This document shows positions 3,038-21,528 of a stretch of DNA of 23,599 bases, one piece after another; position 1 is the first letter of the stretch, and every line of letters begins with the position of its first letter. Below the pieces are notes generated by a model. It had not been told where the DNA came from, made no database searches, and saw only the letters and a program-made list of their open reading frames with translations. The position numbers were made by a program, and so were the translations under genes. The stretch spans positions 1 through 23,599 of the forward strand of contig JBFFSH010000038.1 of the NCBI GenBank assembly GCA_041572575.1, read 5' to 3'. Origin of the DNA: Thermodesulfobacteriota bacterium (lineage in GTDB: Bacteria > Desulfobacterota_D > UBA1144 > Nemesobacterales > N074bin48).

Positions 3038-3081
3038 ACGAGATTGTCACGTCGCTCCGCTCCTCACAATGACAGTTGTGG
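3038..3081. repeat. REP-like palindromic element (solo copy of the family at 7622-7810)
   Basis: ACGAGATTGTCACGTCGCTCCGCTCCTCACAATGACAGTTGTGG shares both ends with 7742-7810 and has an internal inverted repeat ATTGT/ACAAT. Confidence 0.75.
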
Positions 3082-3136
3082 GATGTCGTTTGCTAAAGTA
3101 AAGAAAGCCCACCCTATAATTCTCTGACACCCTAAT

Positions 3137-3171
3137 AAAAAAAGGAGCAGTGACCAAATAGTCACTGCTCC
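3137..3171 (-). terminator. Rho-independent terminator of the DUF11-repeat gene
   Basis: Perfect 11-bp stem GGAGCAGTGAC/GTCACTGCTCC with a 6-nt loop. The A7 at 3137-3143 reads as U7 on the minus strand, and the hairpin lies about 85 nt past the stop at 3255. Confidence 0.9.
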
Positions 3172-3254
3172 CTATGTTTACTTCTTATTGCTTTTCATTC
3201 ACTACCGGGAAGTAACCTTCCCCGCAGGTTTATATCTTATTAAAATCGAGGCTT

Positions 3255-6200
3255 CTATTTAGTTCTACCGTTGTTACCACCTCTGCCTCTACCACCTCCT
3301 GGGCCACCCGGATCACCGGTTCCGCCCTGGACAACAGTTCTTAGATGATGCTCGTTATTGGAGCCATCCGGATCAGGTGTGTCTGAAGAAATTATCTCAC
3401 ATCTGTTAATAATATCTTCTTTTACACTACCTTTGAAGTCAACCTGAATCTCATAGGTCACAGCGTCTCCATGCTGAATCAGATCAGCTTCACACTGTAC
3501 ATAGTGTCCGGATTGATTGTAGAAACAGCCTTGTGATGCGAACTGGAAGATTACCTTCTTCGGATTCAGTGGCAGATAATCTCTTATTACCACGTTCTCA
3601 GCATTTGAAGGTCCGCCTGTTCCACACACATTACTGCCCGTAGCATCATGTGGCAGCTCCGAACAGCCCTCATCATTATGTACCGTACAGAAGTACTGTA
3701 CCGTGCCCGATGGGTTTCCTGTTGGAAAGTTGCTGTCCTTTTCCATCCACAGGTCTGCAGAAACTGCAGAATCTATGTTTGCACAGATGTCCGTGTTGTT
3801 TACCTCATCGGGATCAAATGCATCCGATGTAGCACTTACACAGTTTTCAATATCAGTACCATTAGGCACGTCATTGTTAACCGTGCTCAGTATGGCTACT
3901 ATTACAGACTCTCCCGGATCCACAACGTCTGTGAAGTTACATTCAACAATCGCATCTGGTGGTGGTGGGAAGAACTGACATGCACCCGTTCCAAGAAGTA
4001 TATTTGCACTATCAAACGTTACTTCCGGTGGAAGTATGTCTGTCAGTGATATACCAGTGGCTGATGATGGCCCGTTGTTTGTAATTGTAACTGTCCATCC
4101 AAGTGGGTCGCCTGCGCTTACAGGACCGCTTGCTGGCGTTGTTACAACTTTTGTAACTACCAGATCGGCGCTCTGTGTTATTGTTGTATCACATGTATCG
4201 ATGTTATTGATATTAAAGTCATCGAATGTGTCAGAAGAAACCATAACATCATTATGAAGTATTCCAGTTAGATCAGGCGGAACACTTACATTGATAGTCA
4301 TAGTCTGAGTAAATGCGTCGTTATCGTTTACACTGTCATAGTTACACACTGTAGGAAGTGTTGCAACTCCGGGTACACCTGTCTCACACTGTGCTCCTCC
4401 GGAACCTACTACAGAATTAATCGAAAGCCCTGCCGGCACCACATCTTCAACAACAACATTAACTGCCTGTGAAGGGCCCCAGTTTCCTATGTCTATCAGA
4501 TAATCGAAAGCGGGTCCTCCTGCCACTACTGTGTCAGGACACGACTTCTGGACTCTCATATCTGCAATACCGTCTACATTTATCGATCCCTCTGCCATAT
4601 TGTTTGGCAGGTATGGATCAGGCGTGAGGCTGTTTACAGTGGCAACGTTGTTAATATCAACGTCTTCATTAGCCTGTACTGAAATCCTTATTGCCGTTCT
4701 GTTATCAGACTGTATAGCCGTGAGGTCACCCAGGTCACAGACAACTGTTTCTTCCATCACCATGCTTGCGCTTGTAGGATCACAGGTTACCGTACAGTCT
4801 GTGCATGACTGAATAACAGTTACGTCTGTAATATCAAACAAACCTTCACTCAAAATCTCATCAGTCATAAGAACATCTCTTGCGTCTGATGGCCCTAGGT
4901 TGTCTACGAATATATCACAGAAGCCTGTGTCACCTGCAAATAGCGGCTCATCTGGTTTACAAACCTTTGTAATCTTAAGGTCTGATTCGTCTACGCAAAA
5001 TGTAGAAGCAAATGCGGTATTATTAAAAGTTATGGGATCTACATCTTCATCCGGCATATTATTAATCATCTGTATAGATACACCATCCGAACATGATGCA
5101 AAACCATCATTGTTTGGATCATTGATTAAATAGTCACTAGGAATCAAAAACAGGATTTCAATAATTCTGCTAAAACCCGCAGGTATTCCTGTTAGATTAC
5201 ATTCTATATCTCCAGATCCCGCAAGAGTACAACCAGATGGAAGTGGTTCGATTGGTATTAGAGCTTGAGGAAATATATCTCTAATTTGAACACTAGTTAC
5301 ATCATCCGGGCCATTATTGGTGACTGTAATTATAGCAGTTTGTACTTCACCTGCTACAGTTGGATCCGGAAATACCTCTTTTGAAATCTCGAGATCAGCT
5401 ACAACAGCTTGAACCGCATCATTTGTCACAGAAGTGTTGTTGCTTGTGATTGGATCGGCAGTATCACTTGATACCATTGCTATGTTTTGCAGTGACCCGC
5501 TTGCACCAGCCTGTACCTCTACAGGAATTGTAATAACAGCCGGACCATCACCGGGAGCAAAAGGATTCAAAACCCCGCCTATATCACAAACTATTTTCTT
5601 ATTTATTATCTCCTGAAAACAAACTGATCCCAGAGGTGCTAGAATAAGACCGTTTATTTCAACATGGTCAGGTAATATATCTACTACCCTTACATTATTT
5701 GCCGAACCTGGCCCGTTGTTGCTAATAGTTAGAGTATAGAGAATTGAATCTCCTGGACCAACAGGACCTCCTGCAGCAGATGAAAGCTTTTGAATTGAAA
5801 GATCGGCAGAGTTTTCAAACAACACTTCGTCGGTTGCCATGTTGTTTGAGCAGTCAGGATCAGGTGTGCCTTCTGTTGTTTGGGTATGGCATATTGCCTG
5901 CACTACATCGGTTACGTTTGTACCCTGATTTGCAGTAAATGTATAAGACACTGTCACCTGATCTTCATTTGGAAGCACGCCAAGTTCACACTCAAATACG
6001 AATGGGCTTGTATTAGGATTATTCTGAACGAATGTGCAGAATCTGTTAAAACCATTTACGTCCTGATTCTCACTGAATGGCCCAATGCTAAATGGGGCTA
6101 TTGAGCTGCCAGGAGCAAATGTGATGGTATCTCTCAGTATCACATCCCTTGACCAGGAAGTTCCGTTATTCTTAATAATAGCAGTACACTGTACTGTGTC

Positions 6201-6908
6201 TCCCGAATCTAATGGAAGATCGTGGTTACAGACTTTTGTAATTTCAAGGTCTGCATCGTCCTGAACTATGGTCGAATCTGTGTACTGGTCGAGAATAGCT
6301 CCGCCTTCCAAACCAGTGTATGCAGTGTTAAGTACAGCGGTAACGCCATTACTAAAACCAACTACATGATTACTGTTTACCTGGAATTTTAGTAAGAACG
6401 AATTGATTTCTGGAATAATGCCGGGGATTACGGCATTATTCAGATCTCCTATCTGACAGCGTATACAGCTTGCTTCAGGATCGTCTCCACCAGTATCTTC
6501 ACACACAGAAGAATCTGTAGGTGCACATGTAATTGGTAAATCGGGTTCTGCCGGATCACTACTGAACTGCGTACCGCTTACTTCAAGAAGTGTCCACCCA
6601 AATGGAAAATCATCAATTACTATGACGTCATCCGCGTCTTCAGTGTCAAAGTTTCTCACCTGTACTAGGACAAAGAACTCTTCACCTGCAAATACGTCTT
6701 CGTCTTTCGTACAGTTCTGCAGCTCGTCTGTAATTCCAAACAAACCGCCAAGTGATGTAAAATCACAATCAGGCTGAACCCCGGTCTTGAAGACCTGTAG
6801 GTCCGTTGCCACTCCAGCATGTGAAGTGCTGGATAGTCCGAACATAACAATGCAGCTGAAAAGCATTATTGCTATGAATGATAAAAACTTACTTTTATCA
6901 CTTACCAT
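3255..6908 (-). CDS. Large secreted acidic, Cys-rich protein with eight DUF11-type (conserved repeat domain) Ig-like repeats; putative adhesin or matrix protein
   Basis: Signal peptide ends ...STSHA|G and SD AGGAGG lies upstream. Repeats begin TDLQVFK, ADLEITK, ADLSIQK, ADLEISK, SDLKITK, ADMRVQK, ADLVVTK and ADLWMEK. Most contain N.GP..A..V...D..P and end DP...NN. The C-terminal tail is Gly/Arg-rich. Confidence 0.85.
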   Translation of the reverse strand: MVSDKSKFLSFIAIMLFSCIVMFGLSSTSHAGVATDLQVFKTGVQPDCDFTSLGGLFGITDELQNCTKDEDVFAGEEFFVLVQVRNFDTEDADDVIVIDDFPFGWTLLEVSGTQFSSDPAEPDLPITCAPTDSSVCEDTGGDDPEASCIRCQIGDLNNAVIPGIIPEINSFLLKFQVNSNHVVGFSNGVTAVLNTAYTGLEGGAILDQYTDSTIVQDDADLEITKVCNHDLPLDSGDTVQCTAIIKNNGTSWSRDVILRDTITFAPGSSIAPFSIGPFSENQDVNGFNRFCTFVQNNPNTSPFVFECELGVLPNEDQVTVSYTFTANQGTNVTDVVQAICHTQTTEGTPDPDCSNNMATDEVLFENSADLSIQKLSSAAGGPVGPGDSILYTLTISNNGPGSANNVRVVDILPDHVEINGLILAPLGSVCFQEIINKKIVCDIGGVLNPFAPGDGPAVITIPVEVQAGASGSLQNIAMVSSDTADPITSNNTSVTNDAVQAVVADLEISKEVFPDPTVAGEVQTAIITVTNNGPDDVTSVQIRDIFPQALIPIEPLPSGCTLAGSGDIECNLTGIPAGFSRIIEILFLIPSDYLINDPNNDGFASCSDGVSIQMINNMPDEDVDPITFNNTAFASTFCVDESDLKITKVCKPDEPLFAGDTGFCDIFVDNLGPSDARDVLMTDEILSEGLFDITDVTVIQSCTDCTVTCDPTSASMVMEETVVCDLGDLTAIQSDNRTAIRISVQANEDVDINNVATVNSLTPDPYLPNNMAEGSINVDGIADMRVQKSCPDTVVAGGPAFDYLIDIGNWGPSQAVNVVVEDVVPAGLSINSVVGSGGAQCETGVPGVATLPTVCNYDSVNDNDAFTQTMTINVSVPPDLTGILHNDVMVSSDTFDDFNINNIDTCDTTITQSADLVVTKVVTTPASGPVSAGDPLGWTVTITNNGPSSATGISLTDILPPEVTFDSANILLGTGACQFFPPPPDAIVECNFTDVVDPGESVIVAILSTVNNDVPNGTDIENCVSATSDAFDPDEVNNTDICANIDSAVSADLWMEKDSNFPTGNPSGTVQYFCTVHNDEGCSELPHDATGSNVCGTGGPSNAENVVIRDYLPLNPKKVIFQFASQGCFYNQSGHYVQCEADLIQHGDAVTYEIQVDFKGSVKEDIINRCEIISSDTPDPDGSNNEHHLRTVVQGGTGDPGGPGGGRGRGGNNGRTK

Positions 6909-7078
6909 CTTTTTTTCCTCCTTTTATTAGGATTTACATATTTATTGCTAAAACCTGAAGTCTCTTAGATTATTGGATTTAAGAAACCCCACTTTATTTC
7001 CATCTCTATATTGCTAAATTTTGTTTTTCTCCCTTTACCTCCTTTTATCCGTTTTTACGTTTATTTTGTTTGTCATAG

Positions 7079-7390
7079 TTAATGTCCGTTTGCAGTCATT
7101 TTTTTATTTAGCAGTTCAAGTATCTGATTTAGTTTTTCTCGGTTTACGCTGTAATAGACCTTCATGTCCTCCGATCTCCGCTCTACTAATAAGTGATTTT
7201 CAACTAACTGCTGCACAGCTTTCATAATCCCTTCCATCTCTTTATTTATTCTCTGCTCAAGAAGCCACCACTCAGCTATGGATTCTATGGAACCCTCTGC
7301 ATTTGGGTTATGAGCAAGATAGTCCAGTATTTCGTATGCCACGTTTGAGCTTAATTCTGAATCCAGTTCATTATTTATGTCTTGCTTCAC
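7079..7390 (-). CDS. Small hypothetical protein, probable winged-helix fold (ILxYLxxxPxAxxxxExIAxWWL motif)
   Basis: 103 aa with a GTG start and SD AAGGAG at 7398-7403. The helix-helix-helix then beta-hairpin pattern (LVERRSEDMKVYYSVN) is wHTH-like. It lies directly downstream of a sigma54 promoter. Confidence 0.75.
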   Translation of the reverse strand: MKQDINNELDSELSSNVAYEILDYLAHNPNAEGSIESIAEWWLLEQRINKEMEGIMKAVQQLVENHLLVERRSEDMKVYYSVNREKLNQILELLNKKMTANGH

Positions 7391-7428
7391 GAGCAGACTC
7401 CTTTGGTATTTATTCTTGCATGTATAAG

Positions 7429-7445
7429 TGCAACCACAGTGCCAG
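7429..7445 (-). promoter_or_regulatory. sigma54 (-24/-12) promoter
   Basis: Minus strand reads CTGGCACTGTGGTTGCA, an exact TGGCAC-N5-TTGCA match. Predicted TSS is about 7418, roughly 28 nt before the GTG at 7390. Confidence 0.9.
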
Positions 7446-7556
7446 GTTGTAACTGCCTGTGATCATTGAATAATATAAATTTGAGCAGGATAAATTTGTG
7501 ACTCTGGTTTTCAGATAATTTAGTTAGAGCATCAGATTTATAGGGGTAAAACTAGT

Positions 7557-7592
7557 GGACATTTTTGTCATAAAAAAGTCACAAAAATGTCC
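7557..7592. promoter_or_regulatory. Putative upstream activator sequence (bEBP enhancer)
   Basis: Perfect 12-bp inverted repeat GGACATTTTTGT-N12-ACAAAAATGTCC, about 140-175 bp upstream of the predicted sigma54 TSS. Confidence 0.65.
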
Positions 7593-7621
7593 TGGTTGGA
7601 TGTAATAGGGGTCTGGATGTA

Positions 7622-7810
7622 CCACAAATGTCATTGCGAAGCTCAAACATTCATACAGTTATCAAAAATGAGCTGTGGCAATCTCGTAGTTAGATCAGGA
7701 ACAACGTTTCAAGATAGACAAAGTTAGAGGGTTTTTTAAAAACGAGATCATCACGTCGTACAATCCGAATTAAATAACTAATGAAGTACTCCTCATGATG
7801 ACAGTTGTGG
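7622..7810. repeat. Inverted doublet of REP-like palindromic elements
   Basis: 7622-7687 (CCACAAATGTCATTGCGAAGCTCA...TGAGCTGTGGCAATCTCGT) is an imperfect inverted copy of 7742-7810 (ACGAGATCATCACGTCGTAC...GTACTCCTCATGATGACAGTTGTGG). Confidence 0.75.
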
Positions 7811-7899
7811 TTAGTCACTGCCTAAGCTCACACTTCACCTGTCCCGAGCTATGTCGAAGTGCCTGCCGAAGTATAGTGAAGCTGATACCTTCCCAACCC

Positions 7900-7961
7900 G
7901 TCATGCTTGAGCGTAAGCGAAGCATCTTATTTTAGATTCTTCGGCTTTGCCTCAGAATGAC
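7900..7961. repeat. Second REP-like inverted doublet (GTCAT...ATGAC), possibly also the 3' hairpin of the activator mRNA
   Basis: GTCATGCTTGAGCGTAAGCGAAGCATCT-tatttt-AGATTCTTCGGCTTTGCCTCAGAATGAC, 11 nt past the activator stop codon. Confidence 0.75.
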
Positions 7962-7972
7962 AAGAAGAAAGT

Positions 7973-9379
7973 TTAATGCGAAGAAACATCAATATTATAC
8001 TTCTTCATAAGCTGCCAGAATGCTCTTCTGTTCTTCTGGGCCGCTGTGGCAGCCTTGGTGACGTTTCCATCATGCTTAATAAGGAGGGATTTTATATAGC
8101 TTGTCTCAAAACGCTCAATCACGTCTGACTTAAGGTCCTTGAATGACCTGTCAATATCTATATCCTCTATTTCTTCCAGGCTTATATCCTCAGGCTCTAT
8201 CATCTTACTTCTGCAAAGAACAACCGCACGCTCTATAGTATTTTCAAGTTCCCTCACGTTTCCGGGCCAGTCATAAAACTGTAACTTCTGTAGGGCAGCA
8301 TCTGAGAAACCATCGAGAATCTTCTGGAATTTATTTATGTATTTAACAAGAAAATGCTCTGCAAGGAGTGAAATGTCTCCGGTTCTCTTGTTTAGTGAAG
8401 GAAGCTTTAGCGGTATAATATTTAATCTATAGTATAGGTCAGACCTAAACCTGCCCTCTTTTACGGCTTTTTTAAGATTTTTATTCGACGCTGCTATAAA
8501 ACGTATATCTGCCTTCTGAATTTTTGCCGACCCCAGGGGCTTATATTCTTTTTCCTGCAGAAGCCGTAAGAGTTTAACTTGAGACGAGGTATTAAGCGCA
8601 TCGATCTCATCGAGAAAAAGTGTGCCGCCTTCGGCCGCATTTATAAGCCCTGTTTCTGACGAGGTAGCACTTGTATATGCCCCTTTGAAATGACCAAATA
8701 GCTCATTTTCTACAAGCTCCGGGGGCACAGCGCCACAATCAAAAGTGATAAAAGGCATGCCTGATCTGGGGCTTAAGTGGTGAATTGCCCTGGCTACTAT
8801 CTCTTTTCCTGTGCCGGTTTCTCCGGTAATCATCACAGTAGCATCATACTGTGCAATTTGAGGTATTTTTTCAATTTCAGATAAAAAATTTGGGCTTTGG
8901 CCTATGATATTTTTTAGACCAAGCTTTTGCTTAAGGTGTTGTTTTAGATTTGTTTTAATTTCTTCATGACTTTTATCAATATATCTATCTATTCGGGCTT
9001 TAATCTCCTGTGTTGTAAAAGGATGGTAAACAAAATCACTTACACCCAGGCTTAGCAGTTTTTTTATATTATGGTTAGTAAAATCCTTAATAAGCGCAAT
9101 TATAGGAATTTCTCTTGCTGCTAAAAAATTAAATTTGGTTAGCAGCCGCTCAATTTCTGATAAGTTATCAACTGTAGGATTAATAAAAATAAGACTATTC
9201 GGGTATTTATTAACAGATGAGATTACTTCTTTAATACCAGAGTTTGAATCGGTAAACGAGATAAATTGAATGTTACTACTACAGGGCGACAAAATATTTA
9301 CAAGCGCATCATTTTCACTGCAAGAATATTGCTCTGAACCGATATCCAGAAGTAGAAAGGTAGCATTACTAATACCGAT
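7973..9379 (-). CDS. sigma54-dependent Fis-family transcriptional activator (bEBP) with a degenerate N-terminal receiver-like domain; start uncertain (ORF track TTG 9292, frame open to 9388)
   Basis: Walker A GETGTGKE, ENELFGH..GAYTSA, Walker B LFLDEI, FRSDLYYRLN, sensor II WPGNVRELEN and a C-terminal Fis-type HTH GNVTKAATAAQKNRRAFWQLMKKY. Confidence 0.9.
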   Translation of the reverse strand: MGISNATFLLLDIGSEQYSCSENDALVNILSPCSSNIQFISFTDSNSGIKEVISSVNKYPNSLIFINPTVDNLSEIERLLTKFNFLAAREIPIIALIKDFTNHNIKKLLSLGVSDFVYHPFTTQEIKARIDRYIDKSHEEIKTNLKQHLKQKLGLKNIIGQSPNFLSEIEKIPQIAQYDATVMITGETGTGKEIVARAIHHLSPRSGMPFITFDCGAVPPELVENELFGHFKGAYTSATSSETGLINAAEGGTLFLDEIDALNTSSQVKLLRLLQEKEYKPLGSAKIQKADIRFIAASNKNLKKAVKEGRFRSDLYYRLNIIPLKLPSLNKRTGDISLLAEHFLVKYINKFQKILDGFSDAALQKLQFYDWPGNVRELENTIERAVVLCRSKMIEPEDISLEEIEDIDIDRSFKDLKSDVIERFETSYIKSLLIKHDGNVTKAATAAQKNRRAFWQLMKKYNIDVSSH

Positions 9380-9439
9380 AATATCCCCCTATCGAATCCG
9401 TTAATAAAATATATTTATTGCAAATTCAATATGAAGAAT

Positions 9440-9538
9440 TTTATTTCGGTGATCCTTCTACCTGGCAATCATGTTGATGCTTGAGGCAAGTAGCTTTGCG
9501 TCCCATCTTTTCAAATGGTTTGCCTTTATCGTATAAAC
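9440..9538 (-). ncRNA. c-di-GMP-I (GEMM) riboswitch aptamer
   Basis: Minus strand reads UUUAUACGAUAAA-GGCAAACCAUUU-GAAA-AGAUGGGACGCAAAGC-UACUUGCCU...AGGUAG-AAGGAUC-ACCGAAAUAAA. It has the GGCAAACC / GAAA tetraloop / GGGACGCAAAGC core and the AGGUAG-N7-ACCGA 3' layout, and lies in the 5' UTR of the activator. Confidence 0.85.
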
Positions 9539-9552
9539 CTCCTTCAATATAT

Positions 9553-9582
9553 ATTATATTACTTTAGTATTGATAATGTCAA
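9553..9582 (-). promoter_or_regulatory. sigma70 promoter for the riboswitch-activator transcript
   Basis: Minus strand has TTGACA (9582-9577)-N18-TATAAT (9558-9553). Predicted TSS about 9546 lies just 5' of the aptamer. Confidence 0.8.
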
Positions 9583-17369: not shown

Positions 17370-18014
17370 ATGAGTAGAGTACATACAGTTTTATTTATTC
17401 TATTATTTTTCATTGGAATAAATGTTTGCACCAGGGCCCAGCAAATAGACAAAGATGAAGTCATTAAATATGTTTCATCCTATAACGTATCGGCTCTAAA
17501 ATCTCTAGGGCCAGGGGTTATGCCGATACTTTCAAACCTGTATATAGTTTCCGATTCAAAACAAAAAAGAGTTATTGCCAATATATTTTATCAGCTCGGG
17601 TTTCTATCCGGCAATGCTAAGAGCGTGCTCATGCAGGACGTAAGAACCAACGACAAACAACTTAGAGTGGCTGTTCAGTACGCGCTCGGAAGAGTGAGCA
17701 GTGATGAAGATGTTGTAGATGCGCTTTTATATAATATGCATAATGACTCTAATGCACACTTTAGAGATAAGGCAGCATGTGCCCTTGCTTATGACCAGAT
17801 ACATTTAACAGAGAATGAAAAAGTTGATTTGTATGAAGGTTTGATAAAAGGACTTTCAAGTCCAAACAGACAGATTCGCAGTATTGCCATAAAAGCACTT
17901 AAGATACACACTGGACAGACAAAAGGATTTTTGGTAAATGGTACTGCAAGTAATCAATCCGAATCTTTGAGGAAATGGCACGCGTGGTTAGAAGAATACA
18001 AATCAAATCTTTAG
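17370..18014 (+). CDS. Exported HEAT-repeat protein
   Basis: Signal peptide ending ...CTRA|QQ and HEAT-like units LRVAVQYALG, FRDKAACALA and IRSIAIKALK. Confidence 0.75.
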   Translation: MSRVHTVLFILLFFIGINVCTRAQQIDKDEVIKYVSSYNVSALKSLGPGVMPILSNLYIVSDSKQKRVIANIFYQLGFLSGNAKSVLMQDVRTNDKQLRVAVQYALGRVSSDEDVVDALLYNMHNDSNAHFRDKAACALAYDQIHLTENEKVDLYEGLIKGLSSPNRQIRSIAIKALKIHTGQTKGFLVNGTASNQSESLRKWHAWLEEYKSNL

Positions 18015-19701
18015 TAATATTATTTCTTTTTACCATAATATCTTACGGAAACGAATATTCTGATATTCTAGTAAGCTACAGCTTCGATGATGACAATATA
18101 GAAACAGGGCCTGACACTTTTAAAATATGGGAAACAGGCAAGGGCTGTGTAGACCTTACAGATTCATATCGATTTAGCGGATATAATTCGGTTCAAATTA
18201 GTGACGGGGTAGGAGACAAGGACTTTCCTGAACTTATGGGGTTCTTCCCTACAATGAAAACCGGAAAGTTATATATACACTTTAGTTTTCTTACAACAGA
18301 TCATAACGATTTTCTCAATATTGCTCTTGCAGGTCCCAAGTTTTTTAATTTAACAAAAGACGGCATAGGATTTTGGCTTAAAACTCAAAAGGGTTATCTA
18401 TATCATGTATCAGACAGCATGCCTAAAAAGCTCTTTGCTATCCATGCCTTCAGATGGTACTCGGTTGATATTGAATATGATATAGACAAAGGAACATACG
18501 ACCTCAAAATCACCGAAGAAAATCACTATACGCCGCTTATAGAGCTTAAAAATCAAAAAAATGCATCAAACAATCCAAAATCAGTAGTTAATGTTTTCTC
18601 TTTTGTAACAGATCCATTCACAGATAAATCGAATCTAACCTATTACATTGACGACGTAATAATAGGGCTGGATGAAGAGATATTAAAAACCAGTTTTGTT
18701 GCTCCGGGAAGAAAAAAATATTTTGTTGATATGTGGGATGATTATCAGAATAAGTTAAGAGATAAACCCGGCTGCCTTCCAGCAATTCACCCGTATGATT
18801 ACGGGCTAAACGATAATAAAATTAATGAGCTTGGAAAACAGGGTCTTCTTGGTTTAATTAACAAGGCAGCAAGTGGAGAACAAATTCCTTTAGATAAAAC
18901 AAAAGATATTTCACTCCAAAACTTAGATATATTAAACGCAGTGTATAAATGGAGCCGGGGATGTTCGCTGCTTGCATCGAACAAGCCGTCAAAAGCTCTG
19001 GAACTGTTTAATTCGTCGGCGCAAACACTGCAGTATGCTCCGGTTGTTGAACTATCCAGGATATTGGCACTTGCCAGACTAAACAGATGGGGTGAGGTAA
19101 ATGACGGACTTAGAAACCTGTATTTTGAAGGAGTAGATGATCAAAGAATATCCGTAGTTCAGGCAATGTTAGGGATGTTAAATACAGATCTTCAAAATGC
19201 AGAAAAGTGGCTAGAAGAACCAGCCCAAACCATTCCGGATAAATTTGGTGACAAGATCTCCAACAATATAATCAGACGCTTCTGGTCGGGAAAAATAGAT
19301 AAAGATTTATTCATTGCAGCAAAGAAATATATGCCTTATGACTGGCTTGGCTATTATCAGCAGGCACATATAGCGGAACAGTATTTTTATGTACTCTTAT
19401 GGCAGGAAAAAAATGAGGAGGCTGCAATATTTGCTGACCGCATGATTGAACGCCTGGAATTACTTGCAGTGCCCACGTCTATATGGCTTGAAAGAAGAGG
19501 TGATGCTGCTTTTTATATGAAAGACTACAATACAGCCGAAAAGTTTTATCAAAAAGCCTTAGTGAAAAAGAGGAAATTAAAACTGATAGAGCTTTGTATG
19601 AAAAGCTATCAGATGTTTATTACCTCACAGGTAACTATGATCAAGAAAGGTTATATAGAGAAAAAATTTATGGAAGCCTTGTAGATAAAAAATGTAGATA
19701 G
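17975..19701 (+). CDS. Exported protein with an N-terminal beta-sandwich (LamG/ConA-like) region and C-terminal TPR-like repeats; apparent frameshift near 19551-19555 (in-frame stop 19684, restored stop 19701)
   Basis: Signal-like N-terminus, a beta-rich aromatic domain ending YYIDDVII, and TPR-like ERRGDAAFYMKDYNTAEKFYQK. The shifted frame continues LYEKLSDVYYLTGNYDQE. Confidence 0.7.
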
Positions 19702-20118: not shown

Positions 20119-21528
20119 ATGAAAACAATCAGGTTTTCAGTATTTATTGTAGCTATACTCACAATATCCTGTGGGGTGGAATATAACCCTCCTGATTTGG
20201 GTACATTGTACTCACAATCGGCAATGTCATCCGATTTAAACAGAAATCCGGTAATTGTTATTCCGGGTATTCTTGGCTCGAAGCTATTAGATCAGCAAAC
20301 AGGTCAAGTGGTTTGGGGTGCATTTGAAAAGGATTATGCAAATCCTAAAGACAGAGATGGGGCAAAGCTCATTGCGCATCCCATGAAAATAGGAACGCCA
20401 TTTGCTGAACTTAAGGATAATGTTTACCCAAACGGTGCACTCGACAGAGTAAGGGTAAGAATTTTTGGCCTGTCATTTTTGCTAAATGCTTATGTAAACA
20501 TTTTAAGCTCGCTTGGGGTTGGCGGCTATGTAGACGAAGAGCTGGGTAAATCTGGTTTTGTAGACTATGGTGATGAACATTTCACATGCTTTCAGTTTGC
20601 CTATGACTGGAGAAGAGATAATGTGGAAAATGCCAAACTGCTTCATAATTTTATAATAGAAAAAAGACAATATATCAGGGATGAATATAATAAAAGATAT
20701 AATGTTGATAAAGATGATATAAAGTTTGATATTGTAGCTCATTCTATGGGGGGTCTTGTTACAAGATATTATCTCAGATATGGAGATTCTGAGCTTCCTG
20801 AAAATGGAGCCGATCTTAAAGTTACCTGGAAGGGTGCATATTATGTTGAAAATGTAATAATTGTCGGTACTCCCAACGCAGGATCTTTAGATGCCCTGGA
20901 TCAGCTCATTAATGGAAAAAAAATAGGCCCGTTCCTCCCAACATACACATCGACAATAATTGGCACAATGCCCTCGGTTTACCAACTTCTTCCTAGAACA
21001 AGACACAAAAGAGTATTAGATGAAAATGGAAATGCAGTAGATATAATGGATTCCAATACGTGGGAAAAATACAACTGGGGCCTTGCAAATAAAGAGAGAA
21101 TATCTGATCTGCAAAAGATTTTTCCTGATGATACTGATGAGAACCTCATAATGGACACAGCTAAGGACCACTTACAAAAATCTCTTATAAGGGCTAAGCT
21201 TTTTCATAAATCTCTGGATATACCAAAAGCCCCTCCGGATACTCTGAGACTTTATCTCATAGCAGCAGATGCAGTAGAAACCCCTTCGGTAATGAGCGTT
21301 TCAAACACAACCGGAGAGTTAGTAATAGAAGAGTCAGCCCCTGGTGACGGCACCGTACTTAGAGTAAGTACACTAATGGATGAAAGAGTTGGCGGGAAGT
21401 GGGAAGCAAGGCTCGTATCCCCAATAAAGTGGTCAAATGTGATGTTTATATTCAACGATCATCTGGGAATGACAAAAGACCCCGCTTTTACTGACAATAT
21501 GCTGTACATTCTTTTGGAACAGTCATAA
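20119..21528 (+). CDS. Lipoprotein alpha/beta hydrolase, LCAT/phospholipase-acyltransferase-like
   Basis: Lipobox-like LTISC (Cys17), PVIVIPGILGSKL, FAYDWR, nucleophile elbow AHSMGG, GTPNAGS, PSVYQLLP, GDGTV and His in NDHLG. Confidence 0.88.
   Translation: MKTIRFSVFIVAILTISCGVEYNPPDLGTLYSQSAMSSDLNRNPVIVIPGILGSKLLDQQTGQVVWGAFEKDYANPKDRDGAKLIAHPMKIGTPFAELKDNVYPNGALDRVRVRIFGLSFLLNAYVNILSSLGVGGYVDEELGKSGFVDYGDEHFTCFQFAYDWRRDNVENAKLLHNFIIEKRQYIRDEYNKRYNVDKDDIKFDIVAHSMGGLVTRYYLRYGDSELPENGADLKVTWKGAYYVENVIIVGTPNAGSLDALDQLINGKKIGPFLPTYTSTIIGTMPSVYQLLPRTRHKRVLDENGNAVDIMDSNTWEKYNWGLANKERISDLQKIFPDDTDENLIMDTAKDHLQKSLIRAKLFHKSLDIPKAPPDTLRLYLIAADAVETPSVMSVSNTTGELVIEESAPGDGTVLRVSTLMDERVGGKWEARLVSPIKWSNVMFIFNDHLGMTKDPAFTDNMLYILLEQS

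What the first reader, a model, noticed from the sequence alone, without database searches (positions are those of the whole stretch)
3137..9582. Self-contained cascade from a c-di-GMP riboswitch through an orphan sigma54 activator to a wHTH protein and a giant DUF11 adhesin
Seen in sequence, all on the minus strand and in logical order: TTGACA-N18-TATAAT, a GEMM-I aptamer, a bEBP gene, a 12-bp palindrome at enhancer distance, a perfect TGGCAC-N5-TTGCA, a 103-aa wHTH-like gene, an ANGGA-rich leader, a 1217-aa secreted repeat protein and a strong terminator. Established: c-di-GMP controls the motile/sessile switch, and sigma54 promoters need a bEBP bound upstream. Inference: the riboswitch sets the amount of a phosphorylation-independent activator, which then switches on the adjacent adhesin operon. 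c-di-GMP would thus act on the activator mRNA rather than on the protein, as it does for FleQ/FlrA/VpsR. I do not know of a description of this complete architecture.
Basis: partly seen in the sequence, partly recalled or inferred. Interest (0 to 1): 0.88.

Follow-up and report, generated by a model that had tools for sequence, protein, structure and literature searches.

The report
Riboswitch-gated portable sigma-54 activator cassette
A c-di-GMP-sensing RNA sits in front of a gene-activating protein that has lost its usual phosphorylation switch; that activator, its DNA binding sites, a sigma-54 promoter and a small unknown partner gene form a cassette found in many bacteria, which here drives a large secreted protein but elsewhere mostly drives contractile injection machines.

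Summary
The core is not peculiar to this window. A pseudo-receiver sigma54 activator lies just upstream of the small 'WWL' gene in 65 of 71 genome loci with enough flank. A -24/-12 promoter (95 of 106 spacers) and a 16-bp dyad AGGACAAATTTGTCCT at about -50/-120/-142 (85 of 95) are conserved with it. The '12-bp palindrome' is two such dyads, and a third lies at 7487-7502. The cargo is interchangeable: contractile-injection genes in 46 of 69 loci, the DUF11 protein only here. The riboswitch is an add-on. It precedes the activator here and in 6 of 13 Brocadiales activator genes, but in none of 32 other riboswitch-bearing genomes; the switch-fronted activators are not one clade (AU p=7e-6). In Brocadiales it is a terminator-type ON switch, often with a second switch after WWL. 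Here the platform is a hairpin that hides the ribosome site, the activator lacks an AUG at the homologous start, and ON behaviour is inferred only. No CsrA was found. 'Adhesin' and the role of WWL are untested. Verdict: real, a new variant of known kinds; I found no description of the cassette.

The parts
9553..9582 (-). sigma70-type promoter TTGACA-N18-TATAAT for the riboswitch-activator transcript (start site expected near 9546, not mapped)
   Evidence: 12/12 match; similar -35 boxes precede many other aptamers of this genome (by eye)
9445..9534 (-). c-di-GMP-I (GEMM-I) aptamer; several non-standard pairs are marked in the Rfam alignment
   Evidence: 60.5 bits; one of 16 in the genome
9371..9444 (-). 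translational expression platform: long hairpin that pairs an anti-SD with the SD AGGGGG (9390-9385); in the free fold the aptamer's 3' tail extends it over the start-codon region
   Evidence: hairpin 9444-9384 z = -4.7; cost of opening the ribosome site 15.9-17.4 kcal/mol free, 13.9-14.3 with the aptamer blocked
7973..9379 (-). sigma54 activator (bEBP), about 466-468 aa: pseudo-receiver, AAA+ (GAYTSA loop, intact Walker A/B and sensor II), Fis-type HTH (KNRRAFWQL). Probable non-AUG start at ATT 9373 or ATC 9379; the annotated TTG start at 9292 would cut the first strand and helix
   Evidence: identical bases in contigs of runs X15 and X6
7900..7965 (.). REP-like palindromic repeat with other copies in the genome; not part of the conserved cassette
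   Evidence: 9 blastn rows
7578..7593 (.). dyad site 1 (centre -142 from the -24 GG), 10.9 bits
   Evidence: matrix trained without this window
7556..7571 (.). dyad site 2 (centre -120), 16.1 bits; the pair of sites 1 and 2 is the best tandem pair in the genome
7429..7444 (-). sigma54 -24/-12 promoter TGGCAC-N5-TTGCA (start site expected near 7418, not mapped)
   Evidence: 17.8 bits
7079..7390 (-). 103-aa 'WWL' protein of an unnamed family; winged-helix-like; first gene behind the sigma54 promoter
   Evidence: (1065 representatives at E<=0.001)
6909..7078 (-). 170-nt leader with five ANGGA words and one 13-bp hairpin; no evidence for CsrA control
3255..6908 (-). 1217-aa acidic, Cys-rich (39 Cys) DUF11-repeat protein with a signal-peptide-like N-terminus and a Gly/Arg tail; the local cargo; adhesin role inferred
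3142..3173 (-). intrinsic terminator closing the operon

Best explanation
The region is a local copy of a portable sigma54 expression cassette that has picked up a c-di-GMP riboswitch and a DUF11 cargo gene. SHOWN by comparison: activator gene, three dyad sites, -24/-12 promoter and WWL gene are conserved as a unit, and the activator's receiver-like domain lacks the phosphorylation residues. INFERRED: a sigma70 promoter makes the riboswitch-activator mRNA; its ribosome site is buried in a hairpin and its start codon is non-AUG, so basal activator is very low. c-di-GMP binding withdraws the aptamer's 3' tail from that hairpin and raises translation (ON). The activator binds the dyads through its HTH, opens sigma54-RNA polymerase at 7444-7429 and transcribes WWL plus the secreted DUF11 protein up to the terminator at 3142-3173. 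WWL, always the first gene behind this promoter, most likely acts as a feedback modulator of the activator or of the promoter. c-di-GMP thus acts through activator amount, not through a FleQ-type pocket.
For: Activator within 4 kb upstream, same strand, in 65 of 71 genome loci and 33 of 39 metagenome loci with >=1.2 kb of flank. Promoter in 95 of 106 non-redundant spacers (14 of 120 dropped as near-duplicates; shuffles 1.4; matrix trained on the same set). Dyad in 85 of 95 (shuffles 3.9); positional peaks 35, 48 and 26 of 94 against 1, 2 and 0 of 94 in control windows. Dyad >=10 bits in 85 of 95 rows with the canonical HTH helix against 25 of 45 others (rows include duplicates and kin). At the phospho-Asp column the four commonest residues among 77 homologues are V, I, A, T (own N); at the Lys column P, C, L, S (own H). 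FleQ R144, E330 and R334 equivalents are K, F, Y by offset. Riboswitch before the activator in 6 of 13 Brocadiales activator genes, each with a terminator that overlaps the aptamer's 3' strand. RpoN and GGDEF proteins are present.
Against: No expression or binding data; the RNA-library contigs cannot show transcription. The predicted relief of the ribosome site is only 2-3.5 kcal/mol and the SD stays paired in both states. The aptamer has several non-standard pairs. The riboswitch is absent from the cassette in 0-of-32 fashion in other riboswitch-bearing genomes and in the two same-order relatives G053 and G047, so the family must have another input. The activator sits on a long branch and lacks an AUG. 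HTH and WWL diverge together in the odd subtypes, so WWL binding to the dyad is not excluded.
Confidence: 0.6

Rival explanations
1. The cassette works, but the riboswitch here is decaying or incidental. In a genome with 16 such aptamers, one landed in front of the activator; activator output is set by another signal, such as a ligand or partner of the pseudo-receiver domain.
For: 16 aptamers in the genome; non-standard pairs in this copy; small predicted switching energy; most cassettes have no riboswitch; the pseudo-receiver has its own conserved positions such as G112, D115, P120, R129.
Against: The aptamer scores 60.5 bits, sits 11 nt behind the expected start site, and abuts a significant anti-SD hairpin (z -4.7). 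The same pairing recurs on other activator branches in Brocadiales at 6 of 13, far above what 14-56 switches per roughly 4-Mb genome would give by chance.
Confidence: 0.2
2. The local activator gene is being lost: the start codon has mutated, the message is translationally silent, and the operon is off or driven by one of the 10 other activators of the genome.
For: No ATG at the family start; SD buried; branch length 0.75-0.78; a same-genus genome has another gene at this site.
Against: The frame is open for 471 codons, with Walker A/B, sensor II and HTH intact; promoter and three dyads are intact; the WWL variant EGSIESIAEWW is shared with relatives at 61-75% identity; the sequence is identical in runs of two studies.
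Confidence: 0.1
3. The dyads are operators of the WWL protein (an autoregulator or DNA-bending helper), and the activator binds elsewhere or is recruited by WWL.
For: WWL is winged-helix-like. WWL copies with no adjacent activator keep both promoter and dyads (e.g. L039, L050, L063, L091, L133, L139, L170, L211). One dyad lies at -51, close to the polymerase.
Against: Dyad strength follows the activator's HTH helix. Loci with deviant WWL motifs (this window, L017, L098) keep strong dyads. The conserved WWL motif is acidic and aromatic, which is not typical of a DNA-reading helix (general knowledge). Sites at -120 and -142 are at enhancer distance.
Confidence: 0.1

Closest known systems
Vibrio cholerae Vc2 riboswitch -> TfoY -> VasH/RpoN -> type VI secretion (PMC4858559, passages read)
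   Same: A class I c-di-GMP riboswitch in the leader of a transcription regulator; downstream, a sigma54 activator and a contractile machine.
   Different: There TfoY rises at low c-di-GMP and the sigma54 activator is one step further down. Here the riboswitch is directly on the activator mRNA, is predicted ON, and everything lies in one cassette.
Clostridioides difficile riboswitch -> cmrRST (bioRxiv 10.1101/2021.10.06.463453, abstract and outline read)
   Same: c-di-GMP promotes expression of regulator genes through a riboswitch, with surface and biofilm outputs.
   Different: Two response regulators with a kinase and a phase-variable switch; no sigma54 activator or enhancer is named in the abstract.
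FleQ (Pseudomonas aeruginosa), FlrA, VpsR (PMC10723142, passages read; PDB hits)
   Same: sigma54-family AAA+ activators with an atypical receiver domain, linked to c-di-GMP; FleQ works with a partner protein (FleN).
   Different: FleQ binds c-di-GMP directly through R138, R144, R185, R334 and E330. By offset only R185 is kept here (a column invariant in the family), so the link runs through the RNA. WWL is not an ATPase like FleN.
eCIS regulators of Geller et al. 2021 (PMC8213781; main-text passages, supplement rows)
   Same: Regulators next to eCIS loci. The supplement lists Sigma54_activat as a 'Shell' domain (49 counts in eCIS, odds ratio 1.59, FDR 0.04, 4 phyla; e.g. Ppro_0378).
   Different: The main text names GerE/LuxR and BTAD and has no occurrence of 'sigma'. 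The passages I saw do not mention the WWL gene, the dyad, the promoter, the pseudo-receiver or a riboswitch. Supplement files 13-15 were not searched and file 12 was cut.
c-di-GMP-I riboswitches before surface-protein genes (PMC6366702 part 1 of 3 read; PMC2996986 passages)
   Same: Same aptamer class; surface or adhesion output; most of the other aptamers of this genome sit directly before secreted-looking genes (by eye).
   Different: Here a sigma54 relay is placed between the riboswitch and the surface protein.

Membership tests
c-di-GMP-I riboswitch (RF01051) | Covariance-model score above the gathering cut-off | tested here: met
   60.5 bits against 35, full model 1-87
c-di-GMP-I riboswitch (RF01051) | Ligand-contact nucleotides equivalent to Vc2 G20, A47, C92 | tested here: met
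   They match the Rfam consensus; their role is from one passage of PMC11218506; the mapping uses Vc2 numbering that I recalled
c-di-GMP-I riboswitch (RF01051) | Expression platform that competes with the aptamer | tested here: inconclusive
   Anti-SD hairpin (z -4.7) is extended by the aptamer tail, but the gain on blocking the aptamer is only 2-3.5 kcal/mol
c-di-GMP-I riboswitch (RF01051) | Ligand binding and ligand-dependent expression | not testable with these tools
   needs in-line probing and a reporter
sigma54 bacterial enhancer-binding protein | AAA+ domain with Walker A/B, GAFTGA-type loop and sensor II | tested here: met
   PF00158 E 7e-65; GETGTGKE, DEID, GAYTSA with the invariant Thr, GNVRELEN
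sigma54 bacterial enhancer-binding protein | C-terminal HTH and a conserved upstream dyad about 80-150 bp before a -24/-12 promoter | tested here: met
   PF02954 itself is weak (E 0.02)
NtrC-type phosphorylated response regulator | Phospho-acceptor Asp, conserved Lys, and a cognate kinase | tested here: not met
   Asp column is N, Lys column is H; homologues mostly V/I/A/T and P; no kinase gene among the window's ORFs next to it
FleQ-type c-di-GMP-binding activator | R144, R185, E330, R334 pocket | tested here: not met
   K, R, F, Y by offset from K180 and R363 (spacing 184 against 183); not a true alignment
winged-helix regulators (MarR/PadR/ArsR) for WWL | wHTH fold and a family profile match | tested here: inconclusive
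   11 of 100 members hit MarR_2 weakly, best E 3.5e-4; model pLDDT 87.5 with helix-long helix-beta hairpin-helix; Foldseek best E 0.065; VIA best Z 4.7, rmsd 6.4 over 65 residues, most top rows wHTH
CsrA/RsmA-controlled leader | Several ANGGA motifs and a CsrA gene | tested here: not met
   5 motifs against 2.2 expected, p 0.04; PF02599 not found in the 96%-complete genome
DUF11 (TIGR01451) repeat surface proteins | Repeated DUF11 domains and an export signal | tested here: met
   7 stretches, E 1.9e-87; TIGR01451; signal peptide judged by eye
DUF11 (TIGR01451) repeat surface proteins | Adhesion function or surface anchoring | not testable with these tools
   no anchor domain found by Pfam; no structure was predicted

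The most novel reading that the evidence does not exclude
An undescribed, widespread two-protein sigma54 switch (a kinase-less pseudo-receiver activator plus its WWL partner, with a fixed three-dyad promoter) is the dedicated regulator of contractile injection systems and other costly secreted cargo in Acidobacteriota, Verrucomicrobiota, Desulfobacterota and Brocadiales. Because its output is set by how much activator is made, unrelated lineages have repeatedly wired a c-di-GMP riboswitch onto the activator mRNA: a translational one here, a terminator-type one in anammox bacteria, where a second switch after WWL makes a coherent feed-forward gate.
Probability: 0.4. Interest if true: 0.8.

Novelty: new variant of a known kind. 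Interest (0 to 1): 0.62.

Why it matters
How environmental bacteria switch on extracellular contractile injection systems is largely unknown, and this gives a concrete and testable regulator: an activator subfamily, a 16-bp binding dyad at three fixed positions, a promoter and an unnamed partner protein with over 1000 clusters. It also shows a second way to tie c-di-GMP to sigma54 transcription, through activator abundance and not through a FleQ-type pocket, apparently reached more than once. For this window alone the gain is modest: a likely c-di-GMP-induced surface protein.

Tried and rejected
(1) The five-part architecture as one conserved unit: rejected; tblastn with the DUF11 protein hit only loci cut from this window among all loci held. 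(2) CsrA control of the ANGGA leader: no CsrA found. (3) An IHF site between enhancer and promoter: 15 of 95 spacers within 1 mismatch against 7.5 in shuffles (max 14), this window 2 mismatches; inconclusive; consensus recalled. (4) Autoregulation through dyads upstream of the activator gene: 1 of 67; rejected. (5) One origin for all riboswitch-fronted activators: rejected by AU test on 30 rows, quick tree; repeated loss is not excluded. (6) Assembly error behind the missing ATG: not supported (X6 may be the source of the DNA). (7) Expression evidence: contigs of RNA runs X15, X17 and X19 cover spacers and flanks alike and may be DNA; no inference. (8) A single-protein scan of metagenome contigs, a plasmid search with P0059 and the word-indexed searches found little; these are sensitivity limits. 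(9) Phylum searches centred on G261 and G244 drew largely the same sample as and add nothing. (10) Complex prediction of activator with WWL was not available, so binding is untested; the activator model was never returned (last asked); no model of the DUF11 protein was made. (11) LMF1 was not found in G001 (74% complete), so the left border of the island is not fixed. (12) Paper searches listed no description of the cassette; the library lacks most subscription papers, and most hits were seen only as listings.
Full report
Setting. The window is the whole contig C38 of a 2.6-Mb, 37% GC genome, 96% complete. The genome has RpoN, two GGDEF proteins, 10 other sigma54 activators and 16 c-di-GMP-I aptamers, most of the others directly before secreted-looking genes (by eye).

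Observation. All listed elements are present at the stated places. Three refinements matter. First, the activator's open frame runs to 9388 without an ATG. Aligned to 77 homologues, the family's Met falls on ATT 9373, with ATC 9379 two codons earlier; the SD AGGGGG is at 9390-9385. Contigs of runs X15 and X6 match these bases with no other letters (X6 may be the source). Second, the '12-bp palindrome' is two tandem 16-bp dyads 22 bp apart, and a third dyad lies at 7487-7502. Third, the ANGGA leader is only marginally enriched and no CsrA was found.

The conserved core. The 103-aa protein has 1065 relatives among cluster representatives, with invariant W41-W42 and no Pfam family; the Atlas neighbours are all hypothetical proteins. 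A scan of species genomes with a 30-row alignment gave 78 loci, mostly Acidobacteriota, with Verrucomicrobiota, Desulfobacterota, Brocadiales and others; a metagenome scan gave 80. The narrow pattern biases this sample. A related activator lies within 4 kb upstream on the same strand in 65 of 71 and 33 of 39 loci that have at least 1.2 kb of flank, with median gaps of 265 and 287 nt among those within 1.2 kb. In 106 non-redundant spacers (14 of 120 dropped as near-duplicates), 95 have a -24/-12 promoter, mostly 45-55 nt before the WWL gene; shuffles give 1.4. A dyad AGGACAAATTTGTCCT, learned without this window, occurs in 85 of 95 (shuffles 3.9). It peaks at about -50, -120 and -142 (35, 48 and 26 of 94, against 1, 2 and 0 in control windows). 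This window has all three sites. The dyad goes with the activator's HTH helix: 85 of 95 rows against 25 of 45 (duplicates and kin included, so the p-value overstates). Several WWL copies with no adjacent activator keep promoter and dyads, so WWL travels with the promoter. The cassette is patchy: WWL in 4 of 120 genomes of the own phylum, 18 of 92 in the Brocadia order and 8 of 401 in a sample of the phylum that holds Syntrophorhabdus. A same-genus genome keeps the right-hand flank genes but has an unrelated ORF where the cassette begins.

The activator. The N-terminal domain is receiver-like (Atlas leads at 0.89-0.90 to Response_reg and FleQ clusters) but not phosphorylatable. At the Asp column the four commonest residues are V, I, A, T (own N), and at the Lys column P, C, L, S (own H). 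The AAA+ motifs are intact, with GAYTSA for GAFTGA. Offsets from FleQ K180 and R363 (PMC10723142, passages) put K, F and Y at R144, E330 and R334, so a FleQ-type pocket is unlikely; this is an offset, not an alignment. Some members lack the N-terminal domain and still have WWL (e.g. L213, L216, L233). Whether the activator is constitutive or needs a ligand or partner is open.

WWL. The model is confident (pLDDT 87.5) and its best, weak matches are mostly winged-helix proteins (Z at most 4.7). The conserved motif is acidic and aromatic.

Cargo. Of 69 genome loci with at least 3 kb downstream, 42 have sheath or tube genes by tblastn. Pfam adds three sheath loci and one eCIS-core locus, giving 46. 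Others carry radical-SAM, NusG/MbtH-type biosynthetic, protease, muramidase or secreted-protein genes. The DUF11 protein is found behind the cassette only here; its best relative is 40% identical over 98% of its length. 'Adhesin' rests on the domain family only.

The riboswitch. A model built from 10 of the genome's 16 aptamers found, in 82 sources, only this window and four Brocadia-type loci, and none in 80 mostly short metagenome loci. Among Brocadiales activator genes with upstream sequence, 6 of 13 have a same-strand aptamer just upstream: L051, L052 (second activator), L209, L212, L213 and L217. The seven without are the first activator of L052, L216, L224, L225, L226, L227 and L228, whose aptamer is on the opposite strand. 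L079 and L080 were left out because their contigs end there. Rfam confirms five of the six; L052 was not in that call. These genomes hold 14-56 aptamers each, so 6 of 13 is well above chance, though kin are not independent. Their aptamers are followed by terminators that use the aptamer's 3' strand, that is, ON switches, and a second such switch directly follows WWL in L051, L052, L079, L080, L209, L211, L212 and L226. Against generality: in 32 other genomes that hold RF01051 somewhere, no listed hit lies near the WWL gene (searches compared by eye; 3 hits unlisted). Fifteen further loci have no Rfam hit, and the same-order relatives G053 and G047 have none at the cassette. The switch-fronted activators fall on four branches (quick tree), and an AU test rejects a single clade (p 7e-6; 30 of 83 rows). 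In this window there is no terminator after the aptamer. Instead a hairpin at 9444-9384 (z -4.7) buries the SD, and the aptamer's 3' tail extends it over the start region; blocking the aptamer lowers the cost of opening the ribosome site from 15.9-17.4 to 13.9-14.3 kcal/mol. That points to ON, weakly.

Mechanism. Shown by comparison: a conserved activator-dyad-promoter-WWL unit, a pseudo-receiver, interchangeable cargo and a recurrent riboswitch. Inferred: very low basal activator; c-di-GMP raises its translation; the activator binds the dyads and fires the sigma54 promoter; WWL and the DUF11 protein are made; WWL feeds back. Confidence 0.6; the rivals are an incidental aptamer (0.2), a decaying gene (0.1) and WWL-bound dyads (0.1).

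What is known. Riboswitch control of regulator genes is established for V. cholerae tfoY (PMC4858559, passages) and C. difficile cmrRST (bioRxiv 2021.10.06.463453, abstract and outline). Class I switches act in either direction (PMC6366702, first third read). Geller et al. name GerE as the first conserved eCIS regulator and never use the word 'sigma' in the main text, but their supplement lists Sigma54_activat as a weakly enriched shell domain (three files not searched, one cut). A sigma54 regulon survey showed no passage on contractile systems or Acidobacteria (PMC12316311, passages). Ten library searches listed no description of this cassette, its dyad, the WWL family or a riboswitch on a sigma54-activator mRNA; subscription papers are mostly outside the library.

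Verdict. A real feature. Each part is of a known kind; the portable cassette and its repeated coupling to c-di-GMP riboswitches appear undescribed. New variant of a known kind, interest 0.62.

Noticed in passing
G000:C87:7818-8472 (L001, L005, L006): Three c-di-GMP-I aptamers in tandem, about 280-290 nt apart, on one strand before a secreted-looking gene.
   Followed up: no
L052:10252-10376; L051:4709-4833; L080:2604-2719 and 5220-5321; L209, L211, L212, L226: In Brocadiales a second ON-type riboswitch directly follows the WWL stop codon and gates the cargo; many score best as RF03167 c-di-GMP-I-GGC.
   Followed up: partly
L080:2811-10275 and L051:4922-6690: The cargo in several Brocadia is a cluster with two radical-SAM genes and DUF6345, with a second WWL-riboswitch unit inside it.
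   Followed up: no
L017:8430-10924; L052:10597-11304; L211:5640-8214: The same uncharacterised cargo cluster (acidic and Gly-rich proteins without a Pfam family in those scanned) follows the cassette in G047 and in Brocadia.
   Followed up: no
L016:8684-9235; L072:10762-11292; L077:10582-11148: A NusG-family gene follows WWL before long operons (contractile injection system in L016, named by eye; Pfam NusG and biosynthetic genes in L072 and L077).
   Followed up: no
G000:C30:10292 and G000:C83:9397: Two further tandem pairs resembling the dyad (20.4 and 19.9 bits) with no sigma54 promoter pattern within about 300 nt.
   Followed up: partly
window 19895 (minus strand): A second YTGGCAC-N5-TTGCW sigma54-type site in this window, between the ORFs at 17975-19684 and 20119-21528.
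   Followed up: no
window 7625-7965 and 3040-3090: Several REP-like palindromic repeats flank the cassette parts; the 7900-7965 one has near copies on contig C12.
   Followed up: partly
G000:C127:199-287: An aptamer followed directly by transposase-like ORFs (named by eye), probably an insertion that cut it from its gene.
   Followed up: no
L212:8431 (minus strand): A sigma54-type promoter pattern directly upstream of the riboswitch that precedes the activator in G142.
   Followed up: no
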